Of a DNA stretch of 64,000 nt, positions 3,101 to 63,900 are shown piece after piece. Numbering within the stretch: position 1 is the stretch's first letter; the number at the start of each line of letters is the position of its first letter. Origin of the DNA: Saccostrea echinata (lineage: Eukaryota). A model generated the notes under the pieces. That model did not search any database, was not told where the DNA came from, and worked only from the letters and a program-made list of their open reading frames with translations. The stretch lies in contig NW_026889759.1 in the NCBI RefSeq assembly GCF_033153115.1, positions 13,144,001-13,208,000 on the forward strand, given 5' to 3'. The position numbers were made by a program, and so were the translations under genes.

Positions 3101-6100
3101 TTGGCCTCAGTCCCAGGAAGCTGACTTCTTGTGTTATTGACTTTTGATCTAAGTTCTGGCAAAATTTGGTCAAAGATGCTTGCTTTTCTTTCTACATCCT
3201 GAGGCATATAAAAAATCATTAAAAAATATGTCAAGTGGGTTGAATGTACTTTCAAACTAACTGCTCAATGGATTGAATGAAATACTGTAGATACACTTTT
3301 TTCCTGCGTGGGATTAATTAATTATTTATGCTATGTACGTGGAGCCATTTTTTTGTGGAAATCTGTCACCCACTGATTGAAAAGAAATTGTGATTCCGTG
3401 GAATTATGACCCCAATGAAAAAAAGTATGTTTACAGCATATAATTCCTGGGAGACAATTTTAGATACAATGGGAAAAAGAATTGTACTTTGATGTTTTCC
3501 TTGGCTTTGTCTAGTACCCCTGCTGATTCAATGTTGAGTTGATGGCCGTCTCCCAAAATTTTAACTGTATCATCATGGACTAGGTCTACATCAACCAACA
3601 CATCCTGAAATAAATACATATAGGACACATATTCATTTTCCTGAAATAAAATTGACTCACATACATGCATATTCTAAATTTTTTTTTTCAATTTCTTTTC
3701 CAATATACATTTTAGCTTCTTTTTTTTTCTTTTTTTTTTACCTCTGTTTTATTTTGAATTCTGAGAATGTTACTCAACATTCTAAACACTTCATCTGACT
3801 GCCTGTGAGATTCATTAGAATGTTTCTGAAGGTCTTGAAGTTTATCCATTATGGCCTGAATTTCCTCCATAACTCCCGATGTGTTCACAAGTTTGTTCCT
3901 CATTTCCAACACTTCCTCTGATAATTTCTCAGCCAGTCTGAAAAGTGTGTTGTGATAAAGACTAACATTACAAATACAATATGAACAGGTATTTTCCAAA
4001 TAATACACTGTACTTGACATGAGATACTCTTTTTTTTTCAAACTATCTCCACCATCGCTTTTTCTACATTATTACATCAACTGAATGCAAATACAGTTGA
4101 ACTTCGGTATCTCGAACACTGATATATCAAAAACCATGGATATGTTGAAGTTATTTGGAAGTCCCAACCCCTTATTCTTTAAGTATTTTACCCTGGATAT
4201 CTCGGATCCTCGGATATCTCGAAGTTTTTTTTCTCTGTCCCATTGGGTTCGAGATAATGAGGTTTGACTGTACTGTAATTCATCAAAAATGAAGCAGCCA
4301 GTATGTTTTTATTTAACATTTGTAACATTTACTGTATACATGCAAGCATTTCAAAATCCAAAGCCCCAAATACAAATAATAAAGCACTACAAAAAAAAAA
4401 TTTCACTTACTTATTCTCTCTGAGTGCCCTCTCCAGGTTCCCTGAAAAATTTCTGCCTTTGATGTCCTTTAAAATGGCCCTCACTTTCTCCAAGGCATCA
4501 GTGACATTTATTCCACTTTTGTTATGGACAAGACCCTGAACAACATCCACTAGCTTATCCACAAATTCTGAAAATATGTCACTTATTTTACACAAAAAAA
4601 GCAGTCCATTTAGTGGTAGACCAACATTCAAACCTTCACATAGTGAAAGAATAAAATAGACAATCAATAAAAGATACATGTAGATAACTTTAAAAATCTG
4701 ACAGCTTATAAATCATAACACTTAAAATAGTAAGGAATACATAACTGTCATTCATCAGTTAAGTTAAGAAATATCTTTGTTAGTTCTCACCTTTCATGTC
4801 CCTGACTGTGTCATTAAGATCTGCCTCCAGGTCTGTAGCATTCTTCTTCAGGGTAGCAGCTCTATCCTCCAGTGGGGCAGCTTTAAGCTTAGCTCTCCTG
4901 GACTAAAACATGTAACATCTAGCTTTAAAATATATGTCATATTCATGTGTTCAAATCCTCAAGATGATAAAAAGATAAACATGAATTTGTACTTGTATCA
5001 CTTCTGTTTTACTTTACAAGAGACATTATTCTACATTAACAGGATAATCTACAGAGAAAAGCAAAGTGACTCAAAACAGATGTATAAAATATTGCTGAAA
5101 ATTCCAGTTTAGCAGATGTGAATGATGGCAATATTCAAACACCAAATAGCGAGTTACAGATTATACTCTTAAGGAAAAAATCATTGTCACAACTTAGAGT
5201 TTGTAAAAAATAAATATTTAGTATATAGATGGATAAAAAAGAAATATAATCAAACTGTGTTATCTCGAACCTGATGGGGCCAAGAAAAACTTCAAGATAT
5301 CTGAGCATTCAAGATATTGAAGGTAAAATACATAAAGAATAAGTGGTTGGGACTTCCAGATCACTTCGACATATCCATTGTATTCGAGATACCAAAGTTC
5401 AACTGTATATATGTCTTCTAAAAATGATGAAATGAGAAGCTATCTGCAGCTATTAGCAGTACAATCACACACACACCAAGAACATTGTGCAGATGGGCTA
5501 CAGAGAGATTAATGCAAGCATTCTTTACATACAGTAATAGGACATACAGCATACAAGACTACAACATTACAGAACACATAATATACAAGGACTACACACA
5601 ACCCTTAACACTCACTCTGGTGAGTAAGTCCTGTGAATCCCTCACAAGGTCATTTGTCTGATTCCTCAAATGATCCAGCTCTGCATTCCTTATCGTCTCC
5701 AACTCATCCTGTTGGTATTTATTCATACACAAGACTTATCATCACTCCTCTCATGACATTTTAAACATGTATGATTCCTTAATATTCTTACTGCTGGCAA
5801 CTTTTTTTAAAAATTAAAGCAATCACTTCTTTTCCCACTCAGTTTATAATATGTGAAACTTTTCAGCATACAGAAAATGTTGCAAGGTTTCAACTTTTGA
5901 ATTGTACATACCTTGAGTAATTCTGTTTCATTCTTGATTTTCCAGAGCTGGGTCCATGGGACAGGGAGCTTTCCAGTTAAGTTCACTTGACTGGTCATGT
6001 TTTCTAGGTCATCTAGTTCCCTCATCAGGTCAGCCGTGCAGCCCTCATCACATGCTGTAAGATCACATAACATAGAGATGACATTTTTAATCCTTTTTTT

Positions 6101-9100
6101 TTCAAAAAGAAATGTTTTCACATTTCTGGGAGCATCTCATCAAGTTGTAAACAGAAAAAAAAAAATAAATACTGCATTAACTTTCTTAATGTAATTACTT
6201 TTATTTGAGGATTAAAACGTTAACAGGATATTCTATGGAATACGTTTAATTGATGCCTTTTGTTCATATGTCAATGTATCTCAAGACATTAAACACTCAC
6301 AAACACATTTCCCATCTTCTACAGCATATCTTGGCTGACATCCATCACATTTCTCCCCTGTTATTCCAGGAAGACACTGACATTGTCCACGAGCATTACA
6401 TAAGGAAGATACGGATCCCTCCGGATTACAGTCACATGGCCGACACTTACCCCCTGTCTGTCGTGGGTTTCCATAGTAACCTTCTGCACATCTGCAAAAA
6501 CATGTTCATCATTAAGCAAAGTAAAATTAAAGATACAATGTACATATATATATCAAGCAATAAATTTCAAAAGCTCTTTGGTTTGGCAGTTTATTAGATT
6601 TTTATAGGTATATTGTATAATTAATTTAGAAAATTAGTAGTGATTTTTTCCAATTTTTTTTCTTTGGGGGGGGGGGGGGGGGTTAAAAAAAAAAGCAAAA
6701 CAATGTGAAAAGTATATAAATCAAGTAAGAAATTTATATAATCTCCAAATTTTTTTTCCTACATGTTTTTCCCTACATGTAATAGAATAAATTGTAACAT
6801 ATTATACATTTACAGGAACTTTTTTAACATATGTCTAACTTTTAGAAGAGAAAAAAATCACATAATTAAAAAGGAAAAATGAAAATCTTCTTTACAAATT
6901 TCATTTAGGACACAACCATTTAAAAAGAGTATTACCCATTAATACTCCTTGCATAAGCACCATCAAGCAGCATTAAAATGCACAGCAATAAGTACATGTT
7001 TTAAAACAAATTCCTTCTCACTGAATGACCCAATATCTCCTTCAGATGACAATGTCTATGAATTTAAATTTATGACAAGTGGAAAGGTGAATGATTTCTC
7101 AAAATGACAGATTAAAATTCAATGGAGAAAAATGTGCATTGTGTGAGGGTTGGTAATTGGTGTGGGATAATTAAGGTCTTATGACAACACTGTCTCAGGC
7201 CTGTCACTCATTATTGGGTATAATAACATGTAAATAATGGCTTATTATCCACTTATACAAATGTTGATTTAAACCATCATTATATTTTATGCTTCTCTTA
7301 ATTTGATTTTACATACAATAGAGTGTATTTAAATTTTTAAAAGTATCAACATTTCTTAAGTCTTTTAAACAAATGAAAAAGTTTGCTCAAAGGAGTTGCA
7401 TGTAAATATGGATTATCTATAACAACATTTAAACCAGGTATTAAACCTTTTAAGCATTTTTTTTTCTGGTGTGGCAATGCTTGACCATTAAAGAAATGTA
7501 ACAAGTACTTCAAGCTTTTCATGTTTTTAATTTAAAATACATGTATTTGTGCACTAACATTCCCATTGTATTTAAATATACATGGATGCTGTGATAAATA
7601 CTTTCAATTATAACATACATTTGTATTGTTTTAACATTGAAGTTAAACCCTGGATTATAGAGAAAAATATTTCTTAGAAGAAAAAATGTCGGTTCAATAA
7701 AATTGCTAAATACTAGCTGCCACCCTTACCACACAACACCTGAAGACTATGTACAACCTAAACAATATCATGATTTCTACAATATGGAAGTATCTATAAT
7801 CTATTTTGCTATTAAGAAAAAAACTCAGAAAATACATACGATTCACATCTTGTACCAATATATCCTTCAGTGCAATTTGTGCAGTAAAGTTGGCCTCGGC
7901 GAATTTCACAGGTGCTGCTGAAACTGAACAGATTTTGGTACTGTCATTACATTTTTTCTACAAAACTAATACTTGAGGGGTTGTACATCTAAATTGACAT
8001 CAAGGTTAATGCACATAAAAACCTTTAAGTTTTAACACAGAAAAACATAATTACTTCTTGTTGATGCTAGGACAGACATTAAGGTTAATATACATGAAAA
8101 CCCTTAAGTTTTGTCACTGAGAAGCATTATTACTTGTTGTCAATGCTAGGACAGATGCAGGGTTGACAGTCAACAGGTGAACCTCTGGTCGCATCACCAT
8201 AGAAACCAGGCAAGCATCTCTCACACTGACTTCCTGTTGTGTTATGCTGACAATTCTAGAATTGGTTTGTGATAATTATTCATCATAATCAATGTAAACT
8301 GGTTGATTACTGGTAATCCTTAACAAGTGTTTTATTAAACATAATCTTAATGCACACCTTTCCAGATTTTGTTTTACATGTACATGTATTTATATTTCAT
8401 GAAATTCTATACATTAAACATCATCCACAAATCCTTAATTAATGAAAACATGTATCAAGATTATTTAGTCATAAATTTTAAGTATAAAATTGTTTCCATC
8501 CTTTACCATGATTAGCCCCCAGTATAAAATTGTTTGTACCTTACACACTCCTGTATTCCTGTCACAGATGTCCGAGTGCCTGTGGCAGTTACAAGGTACC
8601 ACCTCTCCGATTACACGGATTGGATAAGACAGATCTATGGTGGAATTGTGCTTCAGTCTATAGTAGCCCTCTGCTGGATCCTGTCATAACAAAGGAGTCC
8701 ATTTTTAAATTCTCTGAACACTTAAAGGGTTTTTATCACCTCTCAGAATTTTTTGATATGACAAAGTTTACACGCTATTAAAATCATATATTTAAAAATC
8801 TTTGCTAGAAAATTAATATTTTTAATGTTTCAGCGATTCAAAGTTTGATTTTCTCAATATGCATATTTTGATCGCCGATGTTACACGCCATTGCTCTGAT
8901 GTCATAGGTGTCAATCCTGGTCAAGCGAAGTACTTATTGTGTATACAAAAGGGCTCAATGGTTGTGTCTATTAAAACTGTTAGAAAATAATTAAGTGATA
9001 ATTGGATAATTGACAGCTAGTAAGGTATAATTTATTGCTTGAGGATTCACAAATGTGCACAAGAAAGGTTTTAGGAAGGTTTTTTCCCCCACATTTCTTG

Positions 9101-12100
9101 GACTTGGTCGAGAGATGAAAGGGGGGCCCTTTTCTGCAAATGCGATGGCTTTTATCTCCATTATAAACAATCGTTTATGCCCGAACGATCACAATTTTTT
9201 TTTCTGTCCTATAAAATATCTTAAGGAAAGATATCTTTAAAAAAATAATAAATGACAAACACGCATTTTTTAAAAGTCGCACAGAATCTAGTAGGAATGT
9301 TGTGAACTGTGTAATGGCGTATGGCACCACTGAAGAAATGTCATTTCTAGTACATGATATTCACTGCTAGAACAGATAGAAGATATACAGGATTTATTAA
9401 TATATGATTAATTAAAATAATAATGAAAGAGAATTTTAAATTCCCATATTTATATATGTTTACGAAGTTAAACTTTAGTAATTCTTTCTATTTAGTTGAA
9501 GTCCCGAGTTGTCAACGGCTTCGTCTTCGGTGACCTCTCTCCAATTGTCAGCTTATTTTCTGGATATTTCTCTCTGCTAGATGTTCATACATAAAAGATT
9601 GACCGCCCATAACCAAAGGAATATAGTTAATGTCAAAATTTCAACCGGCCATATTGTGTATTCTATTTATTTAGCGTAAAAATCTATTCAATATATTTTT
9701 TTCTTACGATAAGCTTTACGAGTTCTGTGACCACTGACACCCACGATGTTTCATGACCACGTGACCCCTATCTAATTAGTGGAGATTTTTACTTCGAGGA
9801 CCCTATATTACGGGCGTTTTATCGTCTAATTACGGCCGTTTTCAACATTATTTCATAATGAAACGATAATTATATGTTTCAAGAATATAATAATAGTGTT
9901 TCATTTTAAAGAAATTTAGATATGTGATAAAAACCCTTTAAATTCTGCTACACTAAAAATGATGAAAATGTGTTAAGGAGATACTGAAAATGACTTTTTA
10001 TTTGTGAGAACTTTATTTTTGCGTAATTAATTGAAACTATCTGCTCATGAAATTTTTATTCTTGCATATATTTTTTTCATAAAGATTATATACAGCAATA
10101 ACCACAATTCATGTTAATTTTGTCTCACTTAACTTGTAAATATCAAATAGCTATCTTGCAAAAATAAGGTGTCACGAAAATTTGTCAATTTACAGTTCAT
10201 GAAAAGATTAAGATTATACAGTAATTCTTCTTAAAACATAAAACTATGAAATTGAAATGAAAAATCAATTGGGATAACAATTTTTTGACTGAGAAAAGAA
10301 CATTTTTCGATCATTGTATCTTTATTTTTCACAGAAACTTCAATACCTGACAAGAAAGTCCCGAGTACTGTTGTGGACACTGACAAATCTCCACTCCTAA
10401 TGCTGGGTTTTCTGTACTACCATTCCCTGGCTGGGCACTGTCCAGTGATACAGAAGTCAACCTGAAAGAAAAACAAAATTCTGGAGCAAAACACAACATA
10501 GAACACAGTAAAAACCTTAACTTTTCAGCAAGTAGTATGAAACAATGAATTATCTAGTATGAGAGATAAAACGAAGCAAGTTTTGCCCTAGTAGAAGGTT
10601 AAAAGTAAACATTTTTGTCCTTTTTGAATATCATGTTTTCAATTTACATAGATCATTGGAGCTAACTGACACATTTAGACAGCACCTAAAGACCATGATC
10701 TCTGAAGTGTGGTACTACCTCTACTATAAAAGAACACATATATAGTATTTCCTTACACAGCAGATCTAGCTTGGTCATCCTGAGTGGCCTTTATATAAAT
10801 ATCTGTAACATTCTGCAGCACAATCATCATCAAACTTCTGGTGGCATTACCAAAACCAACCACTCTCCATAAAGTCTAGAAACAAATTTACAAAATGTGT
10901 GGAAACTACTCTGAATATCAACAAACTCATTACATTTCTCTTATGAAAGTCATCTCAGTTAATAAATTTCAACTTCTAGTATGTTATGGTAAATTATTCT
11001 GCCTATGATTGGTATAGGTAAGGCTTCAGTATCCACTTACTGGGTGGAACTTGACGGAGATGGACCTCTCTCCTCTAGGTGACCATGGTGTACCAGTGTT
11101 ATGAGTCATCTGGAACCTATTTCCCACCACTACAATGTCCGGACTTTCATCTACTCGAGTTGGAGGTCCACTGTCTGATCTGAACTGAGCACTAAACCTC
11201 ATCTTCCCATTGTAAGACAAGGTCTGCAATAAAATATACTTTTTCAAATCACAGTATTCAAATCTGTTATCATTTGGAATATACTCACTCTAAAACATGC
11301 ATTAACTTGTTCAAAGGTCTATGTATGTATTAAATTCACTCACCAAATCACCTAGATAACTAGCTGGCAGGCTCCAGTAAATTGGTTTGGTTGCTAGGGA
11401 TTCTGGTACAGCAGCCCAGGTGGAGTTTTGTGGGATAACAACATGGGATTTATATTTTAAAGTGACCTTGTTTGTGACCCGAGGATCAAATGACACACTG
11501 TTTTCTGGAATTTCCATCTAGAATAAAGAGTACAGTAACATTAAAGATGTAGAACCACACTTTGTAACTTTCTTTAATTTTTGTACTGTACAGCACTAAT
11601 ATCATACTCATCTGGATAACAAAACATGAATATCATACATGAGGCTCATTTTCCCTGATAGTTACTTGAATAATGTTTACTTACTCATATAAAGACTTAA
11701 GCCACCATAGTGGCTCGTGCCCTTCAAAACTTTAAGGTAACTCTTAAATTAAGATACATGTACTTGCAAAGTATTTCTACATATTAGAACATTTTGAAAA
11801 TCTTTTCATTTACTGATCTGAGGTACCATTATTTTAGAAAAATCAATCATCCAAATGATTTCACTGTTGGAAGCACTAATTTTAGAAAGTTTTTACTCTA
11901 TCACGATTAGGGGTGCAACGATCCACCAACCTCACAATACGATACGTATCACCGTATTCAGTTCATGATACGATACGTATCACGATACATGACAAGGTTA
12001 AAAAGTCTTTCAAGTTTATCATCATAATTTTTTTTTTAAACTTGACAGGGTTATATCAAATGTTCATATTTTTTGATAATAATTAAAATATCATTTTGTT

Positions 12101-15100
12101 AACTTGAACTGGATCGATAGGTAGATCTTTGAGTTGTGACAATATTCTAAACCAGTGATGAACATTTACAGGGAACTATGGGACCTTACCTAATAATCTT
12201 TCTTTTAAATTGGAATAAAAAAGGAAGACATTGATTCTTTTATTCCTTTTATTTACGAAGAAAACCAGTTGTCATATTTCTTGTGTTAACACGTTTTAGT
12301 CAACAAGACAGCGAATTTTCATCGAAATACAATGCGTGATGAGATATCGTGTATTACCAAAGAATATGTTTAGATCTCAAGAGTTTATAATATGTCTTAA
12401 CATCTTTAACTTTTAAGCATATTAAGTCCTTCTCTGTGTTAAATCTGACGTCTTTAAGATGCTGGAAATGAGTTTAACTGCCGTTAATGTGTTATCGTTG
12501 ACCTCGAGTTTTGTGCAAAAGCCATTTTGAAATTGTAAACAAGGAAACAAAACAGACGATTCTGATAATTCTGGACCGATTGAACCGAACTGTGGTATCA
12601 ATTAAGCGTATGGTGAGTTGAACCATGGAAAAATATACCGTGATATACCGACAAACAGTTTATCGTTGCACTCTTAATCAAGATTACACATATTATCCAC
12701 GTATGATAAGTCATATACATATATTTACAATTACACATTTAATGTCCGTCAGTCTTCATTATACCGAGTACCTTATTCCAGATATAGGGCACCTGCTCAC
12801 ACCTATTTGACCGCTCGAAACAGAAGCAATCAGTGCAGCCATAAGGATTCGCTTTGTGCAGACTAAAGGATCCTGGTCTACATCGACCACATGTACGAGT
12901 TTCTACATTTTCCTGATAAAATGATGGAAATATTTCAATATACACATGTTAAATCATTAAATTTTCTACATTTATTTAGTAAATTTTAAATTTCAAAGTA
13001 ATTTGATTTGAGACACTTTCTCAGCAATACTAAGTATATGCTGTCAATTTTTTTTTCCCATTGGATAGTGACATCTAGATGCTTTATGCAGTGAAACAAG
13101 TATAACCACATCAAGTCATTCTCCTAAACACATTTCTAATGTTTGAATACAAATTATTTGCTTACCAAAGCCTAGAATTGTCCAGTCTACATCAATTATG
13201 TACATAGATGACTATCAGACAAACAAACCATACAATGATGCAGTCATCTGCTATACCTCAAACAGACACATAGACACTGTCCACTGTTGTCAAACAGATA
13301 GACATACCTACGTTGTCATACTAACCGACATATCTTACATTTTCACTGTCCCCTGATGACAGATAGACATATCTTGCACTGAAACCACTCCCTACTGTCA
13401 TTGAAAATACACTAGAGGTAGACCATACGATGACTATGTGCACCTAGCTATCAAACTGAGAGACTCATACTCATACCTTATACTGACACAATTCTCTGGA
13501 AAGTTCTTCATGTAATAATCATGCAGAAACCTCTATGCTGACAGTGTTCCACATCATCATACTAAAATACAGACAGACAGACTTACCTTACACTGACAGT
13601 GTCCTCTATTGTCACACTGACAGTCTGACAGACACCTGTAGAGTTGTCACAACTGCTCAGTTCTGTACTGTCAGTACTACACAGACTGACAGACTTACCT
13701 TACACAGACACTGTCCACTGTTGTCACACTGACAGACACCTGTAGAGTTGTCACAACTGCTCAGTTCTGTACTGTCAGTACTACACACACAGACAGACTT
13801 ACCTTACACTGACACTGTCCTCTATTGTCACACTGACAGACACCTGTAGAGTTGTCACAACTGCTCAGTTCCGTACTGTCAGTACAACACACACAGACAG
13901 ACACACTTACCTTACACTGACACTGTCCTCTATTGTCACACTGACAGACACCTGTAGAGTTGTCACAACTGTTCGGCTCTGTACCATCAGCACTACACAG
14001 ACAGAGCTGACAGTTAGGATGGTTGTAGAATCCAGTTAGGCACTTGTCACACCTGTCACCTGTGAAGTCAGCCTTACAGGTACACTTTCCAGTATTTCTA
14101 TCACACTGTCTGGATTCTGAGGTCTGGAGATTACAGTTGCAGGGCTGTAAAGAGACCTTAAAGCTTACAAAGTATGTCAAGTCTTGTTATTTTTTTGGAG
14201 GTTGCATTATTACTGATTCCACTTTGTTACCAAAAAAAAAAAATATGAGACAAAGTAACCTTGCATCCTTTGATGCTGTCATAGCCCCAGGTATTGGGTT
14301 GACATTCACCACACTGTGGTCCAGTAGTAAGGGGTGGACAGACACACTGACCAGTAATGGGATCACATACATGCCCTGCTTTATTACAGGGCTGACATCC
14401 TGTCAATAATTTACAAGTAATTCAATCATAATTTTTGACTGCACACACACCTTTTTTTTAATTATAACTTTGGTTTTACAAGTGACAGTAACACATACAT
14501 GCACATATGAGTAAAAACCTTTCCCAGAGTAAATAAGCATGTTTTAGCATTCTGATAAAAACTATTTGGGAAAGAAATGAATTAACAAGATTTCATAAGC
14601 TTTATCAGAAATATTAAACACAAGTATATCCCAACGTTTATATAGGATTAATTGTTGTAACAATAAAATTTCTTTTTCCCAACTAGCTTTTTACACTTAT
14701 CAGTTTGGTTGGGTTTTGAAAATTGACCAGCAATTGCTGCATTCTCTCATGCTCATCTGTCCATTCAACTAAATAAGTGAGATTAAAATGTCTTACGTTT
14801 GCAGCCGTTGATGGAGAATCCGTAATACCCTGGTTTACATTTCCCACACTGTTTTCCCTCCACTCCGGTTCTACAGGTACACTGACCGGTTCTCTGGTCA
14901 CACTGTTGGTACACTGCCCCAAGTCTGTCACATTCACAAGGGGAGCAGCCATTACCTGTAGCCAGACCCCAGTAATTCTCCTATATAATATATGTCATAC
15001 AATTCAATGATCATGAAATTTCATCATATTTGAAATGTTTTTTTTTTTTTCAAATTTGTTCTGAAATCATTTTTTAACCAAGATCATATCTCCATCTAGA

Positions 15101-18100
15101 TTATTGGTAAATCTAATTGCCTATCTACTAAGTATAAGCAATTCTATTAAAGATATTCTACAAGTGCTGAATTATCTACTTGTTATGAAACAGCAGAAAT
15201 ATATAGGGAAACAAAAAAATATAAGCTAAATGCAATGAAAGACAAGATCATTTCTAGGAAAGCAGATGTAATAACTAAACACTTCATCAAGAACATGATA
15301 CCCATGATTACTGCAAAGACACCTTGTAGAGAGTTGAAGCAACAGATTGCTTTGAGAAGTATATACAGTATAGACAGAAATATGTTATTTGTAGGCCTAA
15401 AAAGGTTAACTATTATGTTTACTACTCAAATGTTAAATAAAAGCACTATATTATACACAGGAAGAACACCATACTGTATGGTGAGCCAAGACAACCTTTT
15501 TTTTCCTTTTTGAAAATAAATACAGCTCATGCTGATACAAAGTACATGTACCGTTAATATATACATGGAATCTAGCCAGTTCTAACCCCTTAGATTCTGA
15601 GCAAAACAAAGCAAGGATCAGAAGCCCTACAGAGGGAAAAGAGAACTACCAGAAATTTCAGCATCACCTTGCACATATTGCAGCGAGATCCTGTGACATT
15701 GGGGAGACAGTTACAGACCCCTGTGACATCATCACAAAGGGCTGTCTGATTTGTTCCTTCATTGTTACAGCGGCAGTCTGGGAATGCATAATCTAATTTA
15801 GAGACTTGCAACCAACTTTTTAAAATTTCAAGGCAAAAATTGTACCCTCATGAAAAATAAAATGTAGTTTACATAAATTGATAAATAACTTTTCAATAGC
15901 TGTCTTCCCATTTTTTTTTTAACTGGGCATCAAATAATTCCAATACATGTATTTCAATAATCTATGAACCAAACATAGCAAATTTGGCATATCTATATTT
16001 CAAAAAATCAAAGTAACTACCGATCCCATTTTCTGTTACCTCCAACCTACCCTTGCAGCCTCTGGCTGAAAATCCATAAAATCCAGGCTGACATTTGTCA
16101 CACCTCCTACCAGTAATGCCTATATTACAGAAGCATTGTCCACTAAAACTGTCACAGACTGATCCCCGTGATCCCTGGGGGTCACAATCACATGGCACAC
16201 AACCCTCCTCAACATTGCCATAACCAGGCTACAACAAAGTGCTCCCTCAATTTATCCCACATGAAGGTGCATTAAATTTAATTGCACGATTTGAGAACTA
16301 TATGCTTGTTAATATAAAATATCACGTCTTTTGCTGTTATTGCAAACATTCAATACAACTATCGGTGCAGAATTAGTTAACATTCATGATTTCTGCTATG
16401 AATAATTAGTGAAAAGTCAAATAAAACACAACTACGAACAGAAACAAATCACTCACACGATGTTAAATTTTGGTCAGTACTATAACACCTGCCAATTACC
16501 TGACACTGGTCACAGCGCCTCCCATAAAACCTGTCCTTACAAACACACCTCCCAGAATACTGCTCACAAGAACCATTTACTGAACCATTCAGATCACAAC
16601 TGCATGCTGTAATCAAACCAGGTTAACTTTATATGACAATGGTCATTTGCTATTCCCCACCAAAACAGATTTTCTGGTATAGTCTTCAATTATTTTAAAT
16701 TTATTTTTATACAAATTTTCATTGGTATGGCTCCTTTTCTATTCTGAATAGTTATAGAAAAATATTTGCATACACTGCACTCCCTTTAGAAGAAGAAATA
16801 TTCCGATTCAGCCAACAACAGCAAACAGTTTAAGAAAATTAATAATTTATCACTTTAAAGAGGAAAGAATTTCAATCCCCTTCTTTCCCCAATCGCTGAG
16901 CAAAAAGGGAGAGGAGTGAACCATAGCTCTAGTTATTGTTTAATAACTAGGCTGTAATTATAACTGTGCAGTAATTATCTAAATCAGCTGATGACCTACC
17001 TGTACAGTCCCCATTAATAGCTGTACCATAGAAGCCATCCTTACACCTGTGACAGGTTGGTCCTTCCGTGTTGTTCAGACACTTCAAACATTCCCCCGTC
17101 TTTCTGTCACAGCTTGTAGGATTGCTGGTGTCGATGTTTCCCCCACAGGTACATGGCCGACAGAGTCCACCTACTTCAGTGGGATCCCCATAGTACCCAG
17201 GAGCACATCTACATGTAGTTTGATAGCAGTTCATTATTTAATAAATCAGTTAGTCAACTAGTCAAATAAATCAATTCATTGAATCAATGTTAAGTATTCC
17301 ACATCAAAGTTTGTCAAAAGTTCAAATATCTATCTTAATCTAGATTTAATTATGTGCATGATGCAGACTTTTTTAATAAGATAAAAATGGAAAAGAAACC
17401 ATATTTGACCTCTGACCTTTCACATCTGTCTCCCGTGTAGCCGACAGCACACTTGTCACACCTGTAATTGTCATAGTTTCCCACCTGCGGGATCAGCTGA
17501 CAGGTAGGAGAGAACTGATTGGTTGGTTCTCTAAGTGGGCAGGCACATGGTTTACAATCCTCCTCTGTTCCTCGGCGGGGGTCTCCATAGTAACCAGGCA
17601 GACACTGATCACAGTTTTCTCCCATTGTAAAATGCAGACAGTTCTACATAAATAAATATACATACTTATAGGTTTTTTAATAAATAATATATTTTGGTAT
17701 TCAAAGGAAACATTATTAATTATTCTAAAAATTTCCAATATGCAGCAAGCTACCAACATACAATCATTCTGTGGGAATAAAACATACAATGTAGCATAGC
17801 AAGAGACTTATTATAAATAATTGCAAGCTTAAGCTGTGTATAAATATTTGGTTTCCAGTACTATGAATCATTTTTATTCATGAGAATTTTATTTTTGTGT
17901 AATTACTTGACACAGTCTGCTTGCCAAAAATTTTGTTCTCATGTATGTTTTCATTAGTATAGATTACATACAGCAATATCAAGAATTCATGAAAAATTTG
18001 CCTGCCAATAAAGCCCAAATACCAATCTCGTCAAAAAAATTTAGTGATCTACAGTATTTAATGGGCACTAGATTTGATCCAAAAACTAATCTAAAATGAC

Positions 18101-18973: not shown

Positions 18974-21971
18974 CAGAGGCAAACAAGCATTCTGAGAGTA
19001 TTGCATTAGCAATACTAGTCCCCTACCGGCAAGTGTAATCTGGTTCCCGTTAAAAATTGAAAATGCCATAATTCCGTCAAAAATCAATGAAGCAGGACGA
19101 AATGCAAACTTGATCTATAACTAATCAAGGTAAAGTCACATACCAAAAATCAGCTCAATATTCGAAAGCGTTTAGAAGAAAATTGCGGAAAACCCTTAGA
19201 AATTGAAAAGGCCGTAATTCCGTCAAAAATCAATGAAGCGGAACGAAATGCAAACTTGATCTGTAACTCATCAAGATACACTTACATACCAAAAATCAGC
19301 TCAATATCTCCAAGCGTTTAGAAGAAAAGTGTGGAAAACCAAGTGGGACAGACTGACAGACAGACAGAGGGACAGACGGACAGACAGACAGACAGACAGA
19401 CGGACGGACAGACTCAGAGGAAACCTATAGTCCCCTCCGGTTTCACCGGTAGGGGACTAATAAATTAAACACATCATGAATATTTGTATGGGTATTTCGT
19501 GAAATTTGTAAGACTGTGCAATGCAAACATTTTTCATTTATATTAGTACATGTACTTATTACATTCTTGAGGCTATTGTGCTAACACTTGATACTTTAGT
19601 CATCTTTTATTTATCTGTTCTCTAAAACAATTTACAAAAGTGTATTTTAACAAGCATTCTGAGAGTATTGCATTAGCAATACTAGTCCCCTACCAGCAAG
19701 TGTAATCTGGATCCCGTTAAGAATTGAAAATGCCATAATTCCGTCAAAAATCAATGAAGCGGGACGAAATGCAAACTTGATCTATAACTAATCAAGGTAA
19801 AGTCACATACCAAAAATCAGCTCAATATCTACAAGCGTTTAGAAGAAAATTGCGGAAAACCCATAAAAATTGAAAAGGCCGTACTTCCGTCAAAAATCAA
19901 TGAAGCGGAACGAAATGCAAACTTGATCTGTAACTCATCAAGATACACTCACATACCAAAAATCAGCTCAATATCTGCAAGCGTTTAGGAAAAAAAGTGT
20001 GGAAAATCAAGTGGGACAGACTGACAGACAGACAGAGGGACAGACAGACAGACAGACAGACAGACGGACAGACAGACAGACAGACGGACGGACAGACTCA
20101 TAGGAAACCTATAGTCCCCTCCGGTTTTACTGGTAGGGGACTAATAATATCTTATCAGTAAACACTCAATATACAAGTGTCCCCAAAATGCACTTACTAT
20201 ACAGCATTTTGTGCTGAGTGGTATGTAGCTCGTATTAGAAGCCTTTCTATGTTGAATAGGAGGAGCATGAATTCTTTCTTTGTGATTGGCTGGAGAGTCT
20301 CGTAACGGTCACTTTTCACCAATTGAAACCAACTTGACTCATTCAGTGTCACAGTTCTCTCCTCTTGAATATTTTCTCGCAGGTAACTCTTGCCGTTCAC
20401 AATTGTCATGTTGCCACTCTATTGTTGGTCAAATGATGGTATCAATTTTAGACAAAATATTACAAAACAAATTTTTACAGCTTGTTATATTATTTATTAC
20501 GTATCCTTAACATGCACTCTTACAATTTAATTTTAAAACCTTTGAAGATTAGAACCTCACCTGTATAATGACATCTACTCCATACATGTGTCTTTGGTAA
20601 GGTGCAGTACGATCAGTTTCATACTTCACTGTGTATTTCAGATTTCCTCCATATGATGTCAACTGGAATAATTTGAAGAATTCAAGTATATAATTTTAAG
20701 GTATAATTTTACCTTTATTCTCGGCATACTGCAGAATATCAGAGATACTTCATCACTGAATTAACTGAGTCTACATTTATTGGATTGTTTTGTAATTTAA
20801 CTGCCTTACCCGATTGCCTAGGTATTTAAGCGGTGCCTGCCAGTAATACACCACCAGATCCTCGGCTGGATTTAGAGAGTTCTGACTGGCAGGGTAGGCC
20901 CTGTAAACTAACCATCCCTCCTCATCTTTTTGTATAAAATATGTGAAGCCACTGATGTCTACTGAGGTTACAGCCCAGCCACTCATTCCATCAGACATAT
21001 CACTCACCTACAATTAATCAATCAATCAATACTGAACATGCATGCCTTTTCATATTTTATTGAGGTCAATAGCATGTTTTTAATAGTTTTTTTTTTTTAG
21101 GTTTGTTTGTTTGGGGTTTTTTTTTTTTTGGTCATAAAGCAGTACTTTAAACAAACTGCTATACAAGAACATACTGAAAAAATCTTGCTTTGCAGAAAGT
21201 ATAAGCAGAAAGAGGTATTTTCTTTTTTGGTATTACATGTAATATATTTACATTGTGAACCTATCAGGTATATGTCACCTGATATACAATCATTTTAAAG
21301 TCACTTAGTCAAATTGTTCTGGTTTTTCCTAAAAAATAATTCTCCATGAAAAAATTTCCACTTGAGTAAAAAATTACATCCTAGAATTTGGTTTCTTTTA
21401 AAAGATATTAATTTCTAATTTTAAAATGTAATTTTTTCCAGTAAAAAATAGAGAATGCAAAGCTTTAGCAGTGACCTTGTAAACAAATTGTATGACGGAA
21501 ATTAAACAAACCTGTGGTCATCCAAAACCTTTAACTGACTTTGGGTAAAAAGAAGAGACCCAAACAGGAAAAAAGACTGGAAAGCAACATATTTCTATAT
21601 AATGTACATGAAAGAGAGCAAACGACGATGTGACTGCAGAAACTGCTTGGGCAGAACTCGAATCTAGAACATAATGCAAATGTTGCCAAAGGGTTTGTTT
21701 AGCTCTTGAAAGTGGTATAAAATATTCATAGCTTCTTGTCAGCAACATGGTTTTTGACCAAGATTTTCCTTATAAATATTTTTGTAACCCCTCCCCCCCA
21801 GTCCCATAATATATTTTTTTTTGCATATTCTATGTATAGTTGTACATTTATTGTGTCAGAAAACTATGCATCTCAATCGGACCAAGTGACTTTAAGTACA
21901 AAATATAGTACCAAAAGCCATTTCAGTAAGTAACATGTCATAGCAGACTTAACAAGAAGTTTAATTCTGCA

Positions 21972-57909: not shown

Positions 57910-60900
57910 CTAGCCAAACTAGTCATTCGATTTAAAAAAAAAACATTAACACGTAACTTTGCGAAAGTTCTTCGACTAAATTACCGAGTGTTAATTTTGA
58001 TTCATATAAGAGAAAACAAATATTTAAGAATATGGGAATAAAAGAAATGCTCTCTAGTCTAGATCTTTTTTGAAACCTTTTTTTAAGCATAAAATGGAAA
58101 AAAAGTGTGTGTATTCAATCAGTTCTTAAATTCAATTAAGAAAAAAAAAATTGACTAAGTTAATTTTGATTGGACAATTTGACAGGCATCACAATGTATG
58201 GCTCTGTATTGCAGCAGTGTGAAGTATGGTGCAATTCTACTTGCGCATATCCAAACTAGTAATTCGATTAAAAAAAAACAGCATCACGTAACTTTGCGAA
58301 AGTCCTTCGACTTAATTACTGATTGTTAATTTTGATTCATATCAAAGAAAACAAATATTTAAGAATGTGAGAATAAAAGAATTGCTCTCTAGTCTGTTTA
58401 TGAAACCGTTTTTTAAAGCATAAAAAAAAAGAGTGTGTGTATTCAATCAGTTTTATAAATTTAACACAATTTGGCAGGCTTCACAATGTATCGCACTGTA
58501 TTGCAGCAGTGTGAAGTATGGTGCAATTCTACTTGTATTTAAACAAGTACTTACAAGTCAATGTATTAGAAATATCCCCCACCATCCACCCTCCAAAGAC
58601 AGCTTTTATATACAATTTGTCCTTGTGATTGAATGTTTATTTGGAAATTTGCATAATGGAAGTTTTGTTTCAAAGTTCGATAACTCAAATTATGTCCCTT
58701 TGAACAACGTAGACAAAACGATCATTGATTTCTGCTTTATTTAATGTAAATGTTTAAGCAATGCTAACGAGTAACAGGCTTGTATACTATATATAAGAGG
58801 TTAGGGAGACATTCACAAATGACCATGTGTTAAAGTCTGAGTAAATAACGGTAATGTCGCGTGTAAAGGACTTAGTGTGAGCTTATCTCACTAAACAAGT
58901 ACTGCTAAGCAGTATTGAAAAGCGCCTTGATTGGTCTACAAAGTCATCGGCGCTTTGTTTGAGTCTCAAAATATTCACTCATCAGTCAAACAGGAAAGTT
59001 TATTTTTTTTCACTGTTTTGCCTAATAATAAAAATTGACCAAGTATGTTTTAATTAGACAGCACATCAAGCATCACAATGCAATGTATTGTGGGACATTT
59101 ATATTTTTATTTAACAGCAAAATTAATTAGCTTGCAATTAAAGAACTTCACTCGACACTCCAATTTTCCTCGGGATGTTTCGCATATATCCATATCAGTC
59201 TTTCAATTAAAAAGAAAAAACCCCAGCAAAAGTAACTGTTCTTTGATGAGAACTTAGCTCTAAGTACTGTTATCAGAATATATTCTGTTTATCCTTCCTG
59301 GTGCTTATCTGCATCACTCTCAAAATTTACACTCATCAGTCAAACATGAGATTTCTCTCTTTTTCAATCTTTCATATACCCAAACTAGGCGTTGCATAAA
59401 ATAATAAACAGCAATGAAAAAAATTGTCCAAAAATCCTTCAACATTATTACTGCATTGTTAATTTAGATTCATATGAAAGAGAAGAATCATATAAGAAAA
59501 TGTGAATGAAAATATTCCATCCAGTCTGTTTTTCAAAACTTTTTCAAAAATAAAAATATACTAGAAAATATGTTGATTTACACCTTTTTTTCAATACCAT
59601 AATGTAAAACAGAAATGGACTTCATGTTATTGGTTGACATTGTATTGTAGTGCAGTGCAATAAAATGCAGTTAAATTCTTATTATGGTAAACAGTATAAA
59701 TTCTCTTGCAAACAAAAAGATCCACTTATCAGTCAGAAAGAAGTGTTAATTTCTTTTGGATCTTTTGCGCATACCAAAACTAGTCATTCGATAAAAAAAA
59801 AAGGGCGTGTATCCAATCAGTTTTTCAATTCAATTAAGAAAAAAAAAATTGACTAAGTTGATTTTGTTTGGACAATTTGGCAGGCATCACAATGTATGGC
59901 ATTTTATTGCAGCAGTGTGCAGTATGGTGCAAATCTACTTGCGCATACCCAAACTAGTCATTCGATAAAAAAAACAGCAACACGTAACTTTGCGAAAGTC
60001 CTTCAACTTAATTACTGATTGTTAATTTTGATTCATATCAAAGAAAACAAATATTTAAGAATATGGGAATAAAAGAAATGCTCTCTAGTCTAGCTCTTTT
60101 TTTGAAACCTTTTTTTAAAAGCATAAAATGAAAAAAGTGTGTGTATCCAATCAGTTTTTCAATTCAATTAAGAAAAAAAAAAATTGACTAAGTTGATTTT
60201 GTTTGGACAATTTGGCAGGCATCACAATGTATGGCATTTTATTGCAGCAGTGTGCAGTATGGTGCAAATCTACTTGCGCATACCCAAACTAGTCATTTGA
60301 TAAAAAAAACAGCAACACGTAACTTTGCGAAAGTCCTTCAACTTAATTACTGATTGTTAATTTTGATTCATATCAAAGAAAACAAATATTTAAGAATATG
60401 GGAATCAAAGAAATGCTCTCTAGTCTAGCTCTTTTTTTGAAACCTTTTTTTAAAAGCATAAAATGAAAAAAGTGTGTGTATTCAATCAGTTTTTCAATTC
60501 AATTAAGAAAAAAAAAATTGACTAAGTTAATTTTGATTGGACAATTTGGCAGGCATCACAATGTATGGCATTTTATTGCAGCAGTGTGCAGTATGGTGCA
60601 AATCTACTTGCGCATACCCAAACTAGTCATTCGATTAAAAAAAACAGCAACACGTAACTTTGCGAAAGTCCTTCGACTTAATTACTGATTGTTAATTTTG
60701 ACTCATATCAAAGAAAACAAATATTTAAGAATGTGAGAATAAAAAAAAGAAATGCTCTCTAGTCTGTTTATGAAACCGTTTTTTAAAGCATAAAATGAAA
60801 AAAAAAAGTGTGTGTATTCAGTCAGTTTTATAAATTCAACACAATTTGGCAGGCTTCACAATGTATCGCACTGTATTGCAGCAGTGTGAAGTATGGTGCA

Positions 60901-63900
60901 ATTCTACTTGTATTTAAACAAGTACAATTATTTTACTTACAAGTCAATGTATTAGAAATATCCCCCACCATCCACCCTCCAAAGACAGCTTTTATATACA
61001 ATTTGTCCTTGTGATTGAATGTTTATTTGGAAATTTGCATAATGGAAGTTTTGTTTCAAAGTTCGATAACTCAAATTATGTCCCTTTGAACAACGTAGAC
61101 AAAACGATCATTGATTTCTGCTTTATTTAATGTAAATGTTTAAGCAATGCTAACGAGTAACAGGCTTGTATACTATATATAAGAGGTTAGGGAGACATTC
61201 ACAAATGACCATGTGTTAAATTCTGAGTAAATAACGGTAATGTCGCGTGTAAAGGACTTAGTGTGAGCTTATCTCACTAAACAAGTACTGCTAAGCAGTA
61301 TTGAAAAGCGTCTTGATTGGTCTACAAAGTCATCGGCGCTTTGTTTGAGTCTCAAAATATTCACTCATCAGTCAAACAGGAAAGTTTATTTTTTTTCACT
61401 GTTTTGCCTAATAATAAAAATTGACCAAGTATGTTTTAATTAGACAGCACATCAAGCATCACAATGCAATGTATTGTGGGACATTTATATTTTTATTTAA
61501 CAGCAAAATTAATTAGCTTGCAATTAAAGAACTTCACTCGACACTCCAATTTTCCTCGGGATGTTTCGCATATATCCATATCAGTCTTTCAATTAAAAAG
61601 AAAAAACCCCAGCAAAAGTAACTGTTCTTTGATGAGAACTTAGCTCTAAGTACTGTTATCAGAATATATTCTGTTTATCCTTCCTGGTGCTTATCTGCAT
61701 CACTCTCAAAATTTACACTCATCAGTCAAACATGAGATTTCTCTCTTTTTCAATCTTTCATATACCCAAACTAGGCGTTGCATAAAATAATAAACAGCAA
61801 TGAAAAAAATTGTCCAAAAATCCTTCAACATTATTACTGCATTGTTAATTTAGATTCATATGAAAGAGAAGAATCATATAAGAAAATGTGAATGAAAATA
61901 TTCCATCCAGTCTGTTTTTCAAAACTTTTTCAAAAATAAAAATATACTAGAAAATATGTTGATTTACACCTTTTTTTCAATACCATAATGTAAAACAGAA
62001 ATGGACTTCATGTTATTGGTTGACATTGTATTGTAGTGCAGTGCAATAAAATGCAGTTAAATTCTTATTATGGTAAACAGTATAAATTCTCTTGCAAACA
62101 AAAAGATCCACTTATCAGTCAGAAAGAAGTGTTAATTTCTTTTGGATCTTTTGCGCATACCAAAACTAGTCATTCGATAAAAAAAAAAAGGGCGTGTATC
62201 CAATCAGTTTTTCAATTCAATTAAGAAAAAAAAAATTGACTAAGTTGATTTTGTTTGGACAATTTGGCAGGCATCACAATGTATGGCATTTTATTGCAGC
62301 AGTGTGCAGTATGGTGCAAATCTACTTGCGCATACCCAAACTAGTCATTTGATAAAAAAAACAGCAACACGTAACTTTGCGAAAGTCCTTCAACTTAATT
62401 ACTGATTGTTAATTTTGACTCATATCAAAGAAAACAAATATTTAAGAATGTGAGAATAAAAAAAAGAAATGCTCTCTAGTCTAGCTCTTTTTTTGAAACC
62501 TTTTTTTAAAAGCATAAAATGAAAAAAGTGTGTGTATCCAATCAGTTTTTCAATTCAATTAAGAAAAAAAAAATTGACTAAGTTGATTTTGTTTGGACAA
62601 TTTGGCAGGCATCACAATGTATGGCATTTTATTGCAGCAGTGTGCAGTATGGTGCAAATCTACTTGCGCATACCCAAACTAGTCATTTGATAAAAAAAAC
62701 AGCAACACGTAACTTTGCGAAAGTCCTTCAACTTAATTACTGATTGTTAATTTTGACTCATATCAAAGAAAACAAATATTTAAGAATGTGAGAATAAAAA
62801 AAAGAAATGCTCTCTAGTCTGTTTATGAAACCGTTTTTTAAAGCATAAAATGAAAAAAAAAAGTGTGTGTATTCAGTCAGTTTTATAAATTCAGCACAAT
62901 TTGGCAGGCTTCACAATGTATCGCACTGTATTGCAGCAGTGTGAAGTATGGTGCAATTCTACTTGTATTTAAACATGTACAATTATTTTACTTACAAGTC
63001 AATGTATTAGAAATATTCCCCACCATCCACCCTCCAAAGACAGCTTTTATATACAATTTGTCCTTGTGATTGAATGTTTATTTGGAAATTTGCATAATGG
63101 AAGTTTTGTTTCAAAGTTCGATAACTCAAATTATGTCCCTTTGAACAACGTAGACAAAACGATCATTGATTTCTGCTTTATTTAATGTAAATGTTTAAGC
63201 AATGCTAACGAGTAACAGGCTTGTATACTATATATAAGAGGTTAGGGAGACATTCACAAATGACCATGTGTTAAAGTCTGAGTAAATAACGGTAATGTCG
63301 CGTGTAAAGGACTTAGTGTGAGCTTATCTCACTAAACAAGTACTGCTAAGCAGTATTGAAAAGCGTCTTGATTGGTCTACAAAGTCATCGGCGCTTTGTT
63401 TGAGTCTCAAAATATTCACTCATCAGTCAAACAGGAAAGTTTATTTTTTTTCACTGTTTTGCCTAATAATAAAAATTGACCAAGTATGTTTTAATTAGAC
63501 AGCACATCAAGCATCACAATGCAATGTATTGTGGGACATTTATATTTTTATTTAACAGCAAAATTAATTAGCTTGCAATTAAAGAACTTCACTCGACACT
63601 CCAATTTTCCTCGGGATGTTTCGCATATATCCATATCAGTCTTTCAATTAAAAAGAAAAAAACCCAGCAAAAGTAACTGTTCTTTGATGAGAACTTAGCT
63701 CTAAGTACTGTTATCAGAATATATTCTGTTTATCCTTCCTGGTGCTTATCTGCATCACTCTCAAAATTTACACTCATCAGTCAAACATGAGATTTCTCTC
63801 TTTTTCAATCTTTCATATACCCAAACTAGGCGTTGCATAAAATAATAAACAGCAATGAAAAAAATTGTCCAAAAATCCTTCAACATTATTACTGCATTGT

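What the first reader, a model, noticed from the sequence alone, without database searches (positions are those of the whole stretch)
13200..13990. Exon-24 3' end amplified as a tandem array: four intact AAG|GTAAGT donors, one giving an in-frame Cys-rich extension
Seen: the last ~90 coding nt plus the donor are repeated three more times (exon ends 13911, 13803, 13699, 13587; spacing 108/104/112). Donor 2 is in frame with no stop and adds 36 aa, [36 protein letters not shown], a partial extra LE module. Donors 3 and 4 read through a stop at 13761-13763. The junction follows microhomology between the intron start (GTAAGT(G/C)TGTCTGT..) and the exonic CTCTGTCTGTGTAGT. The copies share diagnostic changes in their 5' half, yet copy 1 is identical to the exon over the last ~61 nt. 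Older decayed copies (e.g. TATAAG|GTATGA near 13478, and 13265-13300, 13361-13400) point to repeated rounds. Inference: a minisatellite that breeds competing 5' splice sites, a live route to LE-repeat expansion or to an NMD/truncated secreted short-arm isoform.
Basis: partly seen in the sequence, partly recalled or inferred. Interest (0 to 1): 0.7.

Follow-up and report, generated by a model that had tools for sequence, protein, structure and literature searches.

The report
Splice-donor "mirage" repeat in oyster laminin
The end of one exon of a bivalve laminin gene, with its splice signal, is copied three more times into the next intron, but the one assembled transcript available uses only the first signal, so this is likely a harmless repeat of a kind already known from lancelet and human genes.

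Summary
The array is real. On the minus strand of a laminin alpha-1/2-like gene, about 90 nt of exon end plus AAG|GTAAGT recur three times (108/104/112 nt), with older decayed copies beyond. The interpretation mostly fails. The one RNA-like contig across this intron joins donor 1 to the acceptor at 12912; none shows donors 2-4 (weak: one contig). Donor 1 gives a 57-aa, 10-Cys module like 26 homologous modules (52-71 aa). Donor 2 would add only half a module (93 aa, 18 Cys) and is in frame only through a 4-nt TG-run slip. So it is not a route to LE-repeat expansion. The structure matches amphioxus 'mirage' minisatellites and human F7/CBS/LMNB2 donor VNTRs, where the first donor dominates. It is common here: a second case lies in this gene (donor 8134), and 25 donor-motif arrays stand against 4 for three control motifs in the same contigs (13.5-fold per site). 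This scan has noted the same class before, twice in this genome and 40 times in at least 12 genomes. Minor use of donor 2 is not excluded.

The parts
13911..14144 (-). True coding exon (234 nt, 78 aa): one LE module and the first half of the 10-Cys LE module before the second L4 domain; ends at donor 1
   Evidence: both junctions in contig X1 record 4
13803..13910 (-). Repeat unit 1 (108 nt): intron start + exon-end copy + donor 2; in frame, stop-free, 36 codons; last 61 nt identical to the exon
   Evidence: skipped in contig X1
13699..13802 (-). Repeat unit 2 (104 nt, the base length) ending at donor 3
13761..13763 (-). TGA met on read-through to donors 3 and 4
13587..13698 (-). Repeat unit 3 (112 nt, 8-nt internal duplication) ending at donor 4
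13477..13586 (-). Probable decayed unit ending in a weak donor-like site (AAG|GTATGA), one unit length after donor 4
   Evidence: 34 of 500 shuffles reach its score: weak
13331..13423 (-). Older decayed copy, donor lost (AAG|AT)
   Evidence: 0 of 500 shuffles; family D2
13268..13318 (-). Older decayed copy of the exon end, no donor
   Evidence: 0 of 500 shuffles; family D2
12772..12912 (-). Next exon (second half of the LE module); its acceptor is joined to donor 1
7996..8155 (-). Second, older exon-end + donor duplication in the same gene (79-nt period, 2 copies, 82%); true donor at 8134
   Evidence: first donor used in contigs of X1 and X3

Best explanation
This is a tandem repeat of an exon end and its 5' splice site (a 'mirage' minisatellite) in a laminin alpha-1/2-like gene, likely made by ordinary local duplication and likely tolerated because splicing uses the first donor. 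Shown: the anatomy, use of donor 1 in one contig, and that only donor 1 rebuilds the conserved module. Inferred: a first duplication by slippage or unequal exchange between the TG-rich intron start and a matching exon stretch. That copy then diverged, and later unequal exchanges or conversion with the exon's last 61 nt made new units with an old 5' half and an exon-like 3' half, pushing older units downstream to decay. Inferred: exon definition or first-come choice favours donor 1; rare use of donors 3/4 would be removed by nonsense-mediated decay, and rare use of donor 2 would give a chain with a half-module that likely misfolds.
For: Joint 12911/13910, a GT..AG intron, in X1. Depth in bin 13760-13943 (1.27) is fully explained by that contig's 34 exon bases. 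Donor-1 module is 57 aa/10 Cys against 52-71 aa in 26 homologous 10-Cys modules; donor 2 gives 93 aa/18 Cys. Scallop and limpet laminin alpha-1/2 align straight across the junction. No coding constraint is visible on copy 1. Two unnamed relative proteins (81% identical) read on past the exon with no exon copy for 49 residues, but with a CVCVC run suggesting a TG-rich intron start (inference, no DNA). A second case in the same gene uses its first donor in 2 contigs. The class is common in this genome. Published precedents: PMC3087553, PMC3902484, PMC1557585.
Against: RNA evidence is one low-depth contig from one sample, of guessed RNA type; contigs drop rare forms, and it is unknown whether that animal carries the array. 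All four donors are equally strong (9 of 11 matches to the recalled U1-complementary consensus). In F7 minigenes, perfect downstream sites did draw 70-90% of splicing when the upstream site was weaker, and human 6-16 and CBS use two pseudo-sites besides the true one (PMC1557585). The turnover model was not tested with alleles.
Confidence: 0.8

Rival explanations
1. Leaky or regulated alternative donor: donor 2 is used at a measurable rate and gives a laminin chain with 36 extra Cys-rich residues, or donors 3/4 tune output through decay, with copy number setting the dose.
For: Donor 2 is in frame, stop-free and as strong as donor 1. Human 6-16 and CBS arrays use the nearest pseudo-sites (PMC1557585 introduction passage). 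Contigs cannot show rare forms.
Against: No contig covers 13760-13909. The insert is half a module and absent from 26 of 26 homologous modules. Frame is owed to one 4-nt indel; copies 2 and 3 break it. No purifying selection seen (P=0.23). In 6 other arrays behind homology-supported exons, read-through hit a stop within 1-35 codons, so in-frame copies are not the rule.
Confidence: 0.13
2. The copies' AAG ends act as acceptors (AG|GT), giving stepwise re-splicing or the seed of a new intron, as in duplication models of intron gain.
For: Each unit ends in AG|GT; the model is proposed for mirages in PMC3087553.
Against: Only 6-8 of 18 upstream bases are pyrimidines against 13 of 18 at the true acceptor, and the triplet is AAG. 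The final mRNA would be unchanged.
Confidence: 0.03
3. Assembly artefact: the array was expanded by the assembler.
For: No raw DNA reads of this animal were available.
Against: Units differ from each other by substitutions and by 4- and 8-nt indels, grade into old decayed copies, span only about 430 nt, and occur once in the assembly.
Confidence: 0.04

Closest known systems
Amphioxus 'mirage' minisatellites (Adh3, globins BflGb6/BflGb9, troponin C, PGBD5); PMC3087553 passages of abstract and section 16 read, PMC3902484 one passage read; the original Adh paper PMC117041 was not held
   Same: Tandem copies spanning an exon-intron boundary, keeping splice signals; unit size in the reported range (10-160 bp); homogenised inner units and diverged outer ones; normal splicing reported.
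   Different: Here in a bivalve laminin gene; one unit happens to be in frame; length variation between alleles not tested.
Human F7 intron 7 37-bp VNTR (Borensztajn et al. 2006, PMC1557585; abstract, discussion and passages read)
   Same: The first unit holds the true donor and is followed by identical pseudo-donors; the most upstream site is the one used.
   Different: F7's donor is weak and its unit 37 bp; here all donors are near-consensus and the unit is about 104 nt. Shown in mammalian cells, not in molluscs.
Human LMNB2 100-bp, PDGF 81-bp, CBS 31-bp and interferon-inducible 6-16 donor minisatellites (as summarised in PMC1557585; CBS VNTR nomenclature in PMC2630376, passages)
   Same: Exon-end plus donor arrays; LMNB2 has nearly the same unit length and uses only the true donor.
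Laminin subunit alpha-2-like of Ylistrum balloti (P0084) and alpha-1 of Lottia gigantea (P0037)
   Same: Colinear with the window's gene over 35-36 chained segments, with the same 10-Cys LE module before the second L4 domain.
   Different: Neither has a 36-aa insert at this junction.

Membership tests
Mirage / splice-junction minisatellite | Head-to-tail repeat whose unit spans an exon-intron boundary | tested here: met
   boundary confirmed by a spliced contig
Mirage / splice-junction minisatellite | Copies keep splice signals | tested here: met
   three further AAG|GTAAGT sites
Mirage / splice-junction minisatellite | Normal splicing is not disturbed | tested here: inconclusive
   only donor 1 seen, but in 1 contig from 1 of 3 runs of one sample; carrier status unknown
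Mirage / splice-junction minisatellite | Concerted turnover: inner units homogenised, outer units diverged | tested here: met
   shared 5' variants, 61-nt identity of copy 1, decayed distal copies
Mirage / splice-junction minisatellite | Copy-number variation between alleles or cells | not testable with these tools
   no DNA run holding the locus was listed; metagenome scan gave only 2 distant loci
LE-repeat expansion by module duplication | A whole LE module, with all its disulfide partners, is duplicated in phase | tested here: not met
   only the first half is copied; 93 aa/18 Cys against 52-71 aa/10 Cys in 26 homologous modules
Functional alternative 5' splice site | Transcript junctions from the alternative donor | tested here: inconclusive
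   none seen, but contigs show presence, not absence
Functional alternative 5' splice site | Conservation or coding constraint on the extension | tested here: not met
   absent from homologs; 6 N: 3 S changes, P=0.23 against neutral (low power)
Intron gain or recursive splicing at duplicated AG|GT | Usable acceptor (pyrimidine tract + YAG) in the copies | tested here: not met
   6-8 of 18 pyrimidines and AAG, against 13 of 18 and CAG at the true acceptor
Laminin alpha-1/2 | LE modules and colinearity with named alpha-1/2 chains, with a 10-Cys LE module before the second L4 domain | tested here: met
   no tree was built

The most novel reading that the evidence does not exclude
Splice junctions are mutational hot spots for tandem amplification in this genome. 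Arrays carrying AG|GTAAGT are 13.5 times commoner per motif site than arrays carrying three control 8-mers, an excess that tolerance alone cannot create, and an acceptor motif is array-rich too. That would point to a splicing- or exon-boundary-linked duplication process feeding decoy splice sites into scores of genes, and this locus, with one in-frame decoy, would be a ready test of how an invertebrate spliceosome picks among identical strong donors.
Probability: 0.3. Interest if true: 0.5.

Novelty: new member of a known kind. Interest (0 to 1): 0.17.

Why it matters
As a single locus it matters little: it is one more splice-junction minisatellite, and the laminin made from the first donor is normal. 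Two modest points remain. Gene predictors can be misled by such decoy donors. And the genome-wide excess over control motifs, if it survives annotation-based controls, would put a number on a repeat class whose origin PMC3087553 calls unclear. I found no such count for a mollusc in 6 paper searches, which cover only the open library.

Tried and rejected
No RNA holder on record was listed; three runs of one sample were guessed RNA, and X2 and X3 do not cover this exon, which says nothing on expression. Metagenome scan: 2 loci at 50-54% identity, no use for copy number. First protein search gave 3 distant hits; PDB search gave only laminin beta chains. I predicted that acceptor-spanning arrays would be rare (first-come choice would make them harmful). 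This was not borne out: TTTTACAG triples gave 522 matches against 38 for the reversed motif, though some are one 21-nt satellite, singles were not counted and exons were not checked. Within this gene 0 of 36 acceptors were duplicated. One donor hit (16500, 19/26) was dropped as a paralogous LE stretch in the next exon. Pfam on 28 frames from 23 of the 24 other donor arrays gave 2 firm and 2 weak plausible hits, 2 chance-level hits, and nothing for 7 control frames. PDB searches of 6 frames gave 3 firm hits and 3 blanks. My automatic first-donor walk misplaced L003; I used the site. PMC117041 was not held. A search for a recalled UPF3A donor VNTR found no paper, so it is not used. No fold or complex was predicted. 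No supplements were read.

Full report
Observation. The minus strand holds four AAG|GTAAGT sites with exon-last bases at 13911, 13803, 13699 and 13587, spaced 108, 104 and 112 nt. TRF reports period 104, 3.6 copies, 91% matches. The stretch occurs once in the 923-Mb assembly. Read-through to donor 2 is in frame and adds the 36 residues quoted; read-through to donors 3 and 4 meets TGA at 13763-13761. Copy 1 equals the exon over the last 61 nt, and all three copies share variants in their 5' part. Decayed copies at about 13268-13318 and 13331-13423 beat all 500 shuffles each; the 13477 remnant does not (34 of 500) but sits one unit after donor 4.

The gene. The exon encodes laminin EGF (LE) modules. 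The window's exons are colinear with a scallop laminin alpha-2-like chain and a limpet alpha-1 chain. The repeated exon end is the first half of a 10-cysteine LE module that precedes the second L4 domain. That the host is an oyster rests on earlier scan notes and on my recall of a satellite in the window; I did not test it.

Which donor is used. One contig of run X1 (1135 nt, depth 6.9, about 98% alike in exons) joins donor 1 to the acceptor at 12912 across a GT..AG intron, and all 13 joints listed in 5500-16700 have canonical ends. Depth in the bin holding unit 1 is exactly what that contig's 34 exon bases give (1.27), so no other contig lies there. This is weak evidence of exclusivity: 1 contig, 1 sample, RNA type guessed, rare forms dropped, and it is unknown whether that animal carries the array. 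X2 and X3 do not cover the exon.

Would donor 2 make a useful protein? Among 98 LE-like modules pulled from the fetched proteins by motif, 26 have 10 cysteines and are 52-71 aa long. The other 72 (69 with 8 Cys, 2 with 5, and 1 two-module capture) are other LE types. Donor 1 gives 57 aa with 10 Cys; donor 2 gives 93 aa with 18 Cys. The insert repeats only the first half of the module, so it lacks the partner cysteines encoded by the next exon (established LE disulfide pattern, recalled). The base unit is 104 nt; unit 1 is 108 nt through a 4-nt indel in the TG run at the intron start, a one-in-three accident. Copy 1 differs from the exon by 6 nonsynonymous and 3 synonymous changes over 75.7 and 17.3 sites, compatible with neutrality (P=0.23, low power). 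Two unnamed relative proteins, 81% identical, read past the exon end for 49 residues with no exon copy. Donors 3 and 4 leave a stop 62 and 174 nt before the junction and upstream of many more introns, so decay is predicted rather than a secreted fragment.

How it likely arose (inferred). The intron start and an exon stretch about 90 nt upstream share TCTGTCTGT, a plausible seed for slippage or unequal exchange. A diverged old copy followed by exchanges within the exon's last 61 nt explains, without selection, the mosaic of old 5' halves and exon-like 3' halves, and the downstream gradient of decay.

How common. In this gene, 2 of 35 donors tested and 0 of 36 acceptors have a local duplicate of the junction (a third donor hit was dropped as a paralogous LE exon). 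The second case, at 8134, uses its first donor in contigs of X1 and X3. Genome-wide, the triple pattern of AGGTAAGT at 90-120 nt gaps has 292 matches; the first 100 listed (contigs C1 to part of C15) fall in 25 arrays by my hand count, this one included. Three control 8-mers give 11, 6 and 0 arrays genome-wide and 2, 2 and 0 in the same contigs. Single sites number 37,609 against 81,358, so the rate ratio is 13.5 (binomial P about 2e-9). Of the 24 other arrays, 5 have a firm homology hit in the frame ending at the first donor (TTL, UTP15_C, CAND1, NOC3, sperm Na/H exchanger) and 2 a weak one; the rest were blank, chance-level or untested, though many show an upstream acceptor and open frame. 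An acceptor motif is also array-rich (522 against 38 matches, partly one satellite), against my guess of a donor-only effect. Caveats: controls are not matched for genic location, GC or region; exact-match patterns favour homogeneous arrays, which a conserved exon may keep refreshed; the arrays cluster regionally.

What is known. Amphioxus 'mirages' are tandem duplications of exon-intron boundaries of either kind, with 10-160 bp units, splice signals, length instability and normal splicing; their mechanism is called unclear (PMC3087553, passages; PMC3902484, passage). In human F7 intron 7 only the most upstream of 5-9 identical donors is used; LMNB2 (100-bp unit) and PDGF behave alike, while CBS and 6-16 also use two nearby pseudo-sites, and perfect downstream sites outcompeted F7's weak true site (PMC1557585: abstract, discussion, passages). 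Tandem repeats at human exon-intron boundaries are also surveyed in PMC2812944 (passages). The mirage lead came from an earlier scan note and I checked it in the paper. The scan holds two such notes for this genome and 40 in at least 12 genomes; these are unchecked AI notes and not used as support.

Verdict. A real, ordinary member of a known repeat class. First donor used, copies near-neutral: 0.8. Measurable use of donor 2 or regulated decay: 0.13. Re-splicing at the copies: 0.03. Artefact: 0.04. The only part with some reach is the genome-wide excess of junction-bearing arrays, which needs annotation-based controls.

Noticed in passing
window 16228-16051 and 15777-15668 (minus strand): Contig X1 joins 16500 directly to 14980, skipping two exons (178+110 nt = 96 aa, 16 Cys, two whole LE modules) in frame with no stop. 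The scallop chain P0084 is shorter by this much here, while the limpet chain P0037 has the modules. This looks like a real whole-module change of LE number by exon skipping; the inclusion form was not seen in contigs.
   Followed up: partly
window 7996-8155 (minus strand): Second, older exon-end + donor duplication (79 nt, 2 copies) in the same gene; first donor used in two contigs.
   Followed up: yes
L003, L004, L038, L041, L044, L048 (G000 C1, C9, C14, C15): Donor arrays behind exons matching CAND1, NOC3, a tubulin-tyrosine-ligase family gene, UTP15, a sperm Na/H exchanger and (weakly) a sulfate permease; up to 28 copies.
   Followed up: partly
G000 C9:16729601-16730119 and others: Arrays whose unit looks like intron end + acceptor + exon start; exons not checked.
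   Followed up: no
G000 C1:45-52 Mb, C2:27-31 Mb, C6:15.9 Mb: Several donor arrays cluster towards the ends of long contigs, as minisatellites often do near chromosome ends (recalled).
   Followed up: no
window 11906-12676: Intronic dispersed repeat drawing many 85-95% alike contigs in all three runs; probably a transposon-derived element.
   Followed up: no
window 53728-54686, 39176-39946, 19050-20006, 59797-62893: Arrays of 166, 146 and 335-338 nt units; the 166-nt unit resembles an oyster satellite as I recall it, untested.
   Followed up: no
L050 (G000 C9:28223500-28224400): Control array lying in a long open frame rich in Met, Gly and Asn; possibly a low-complexity shell-type protein, no Pfam hit.
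   Followed up: no
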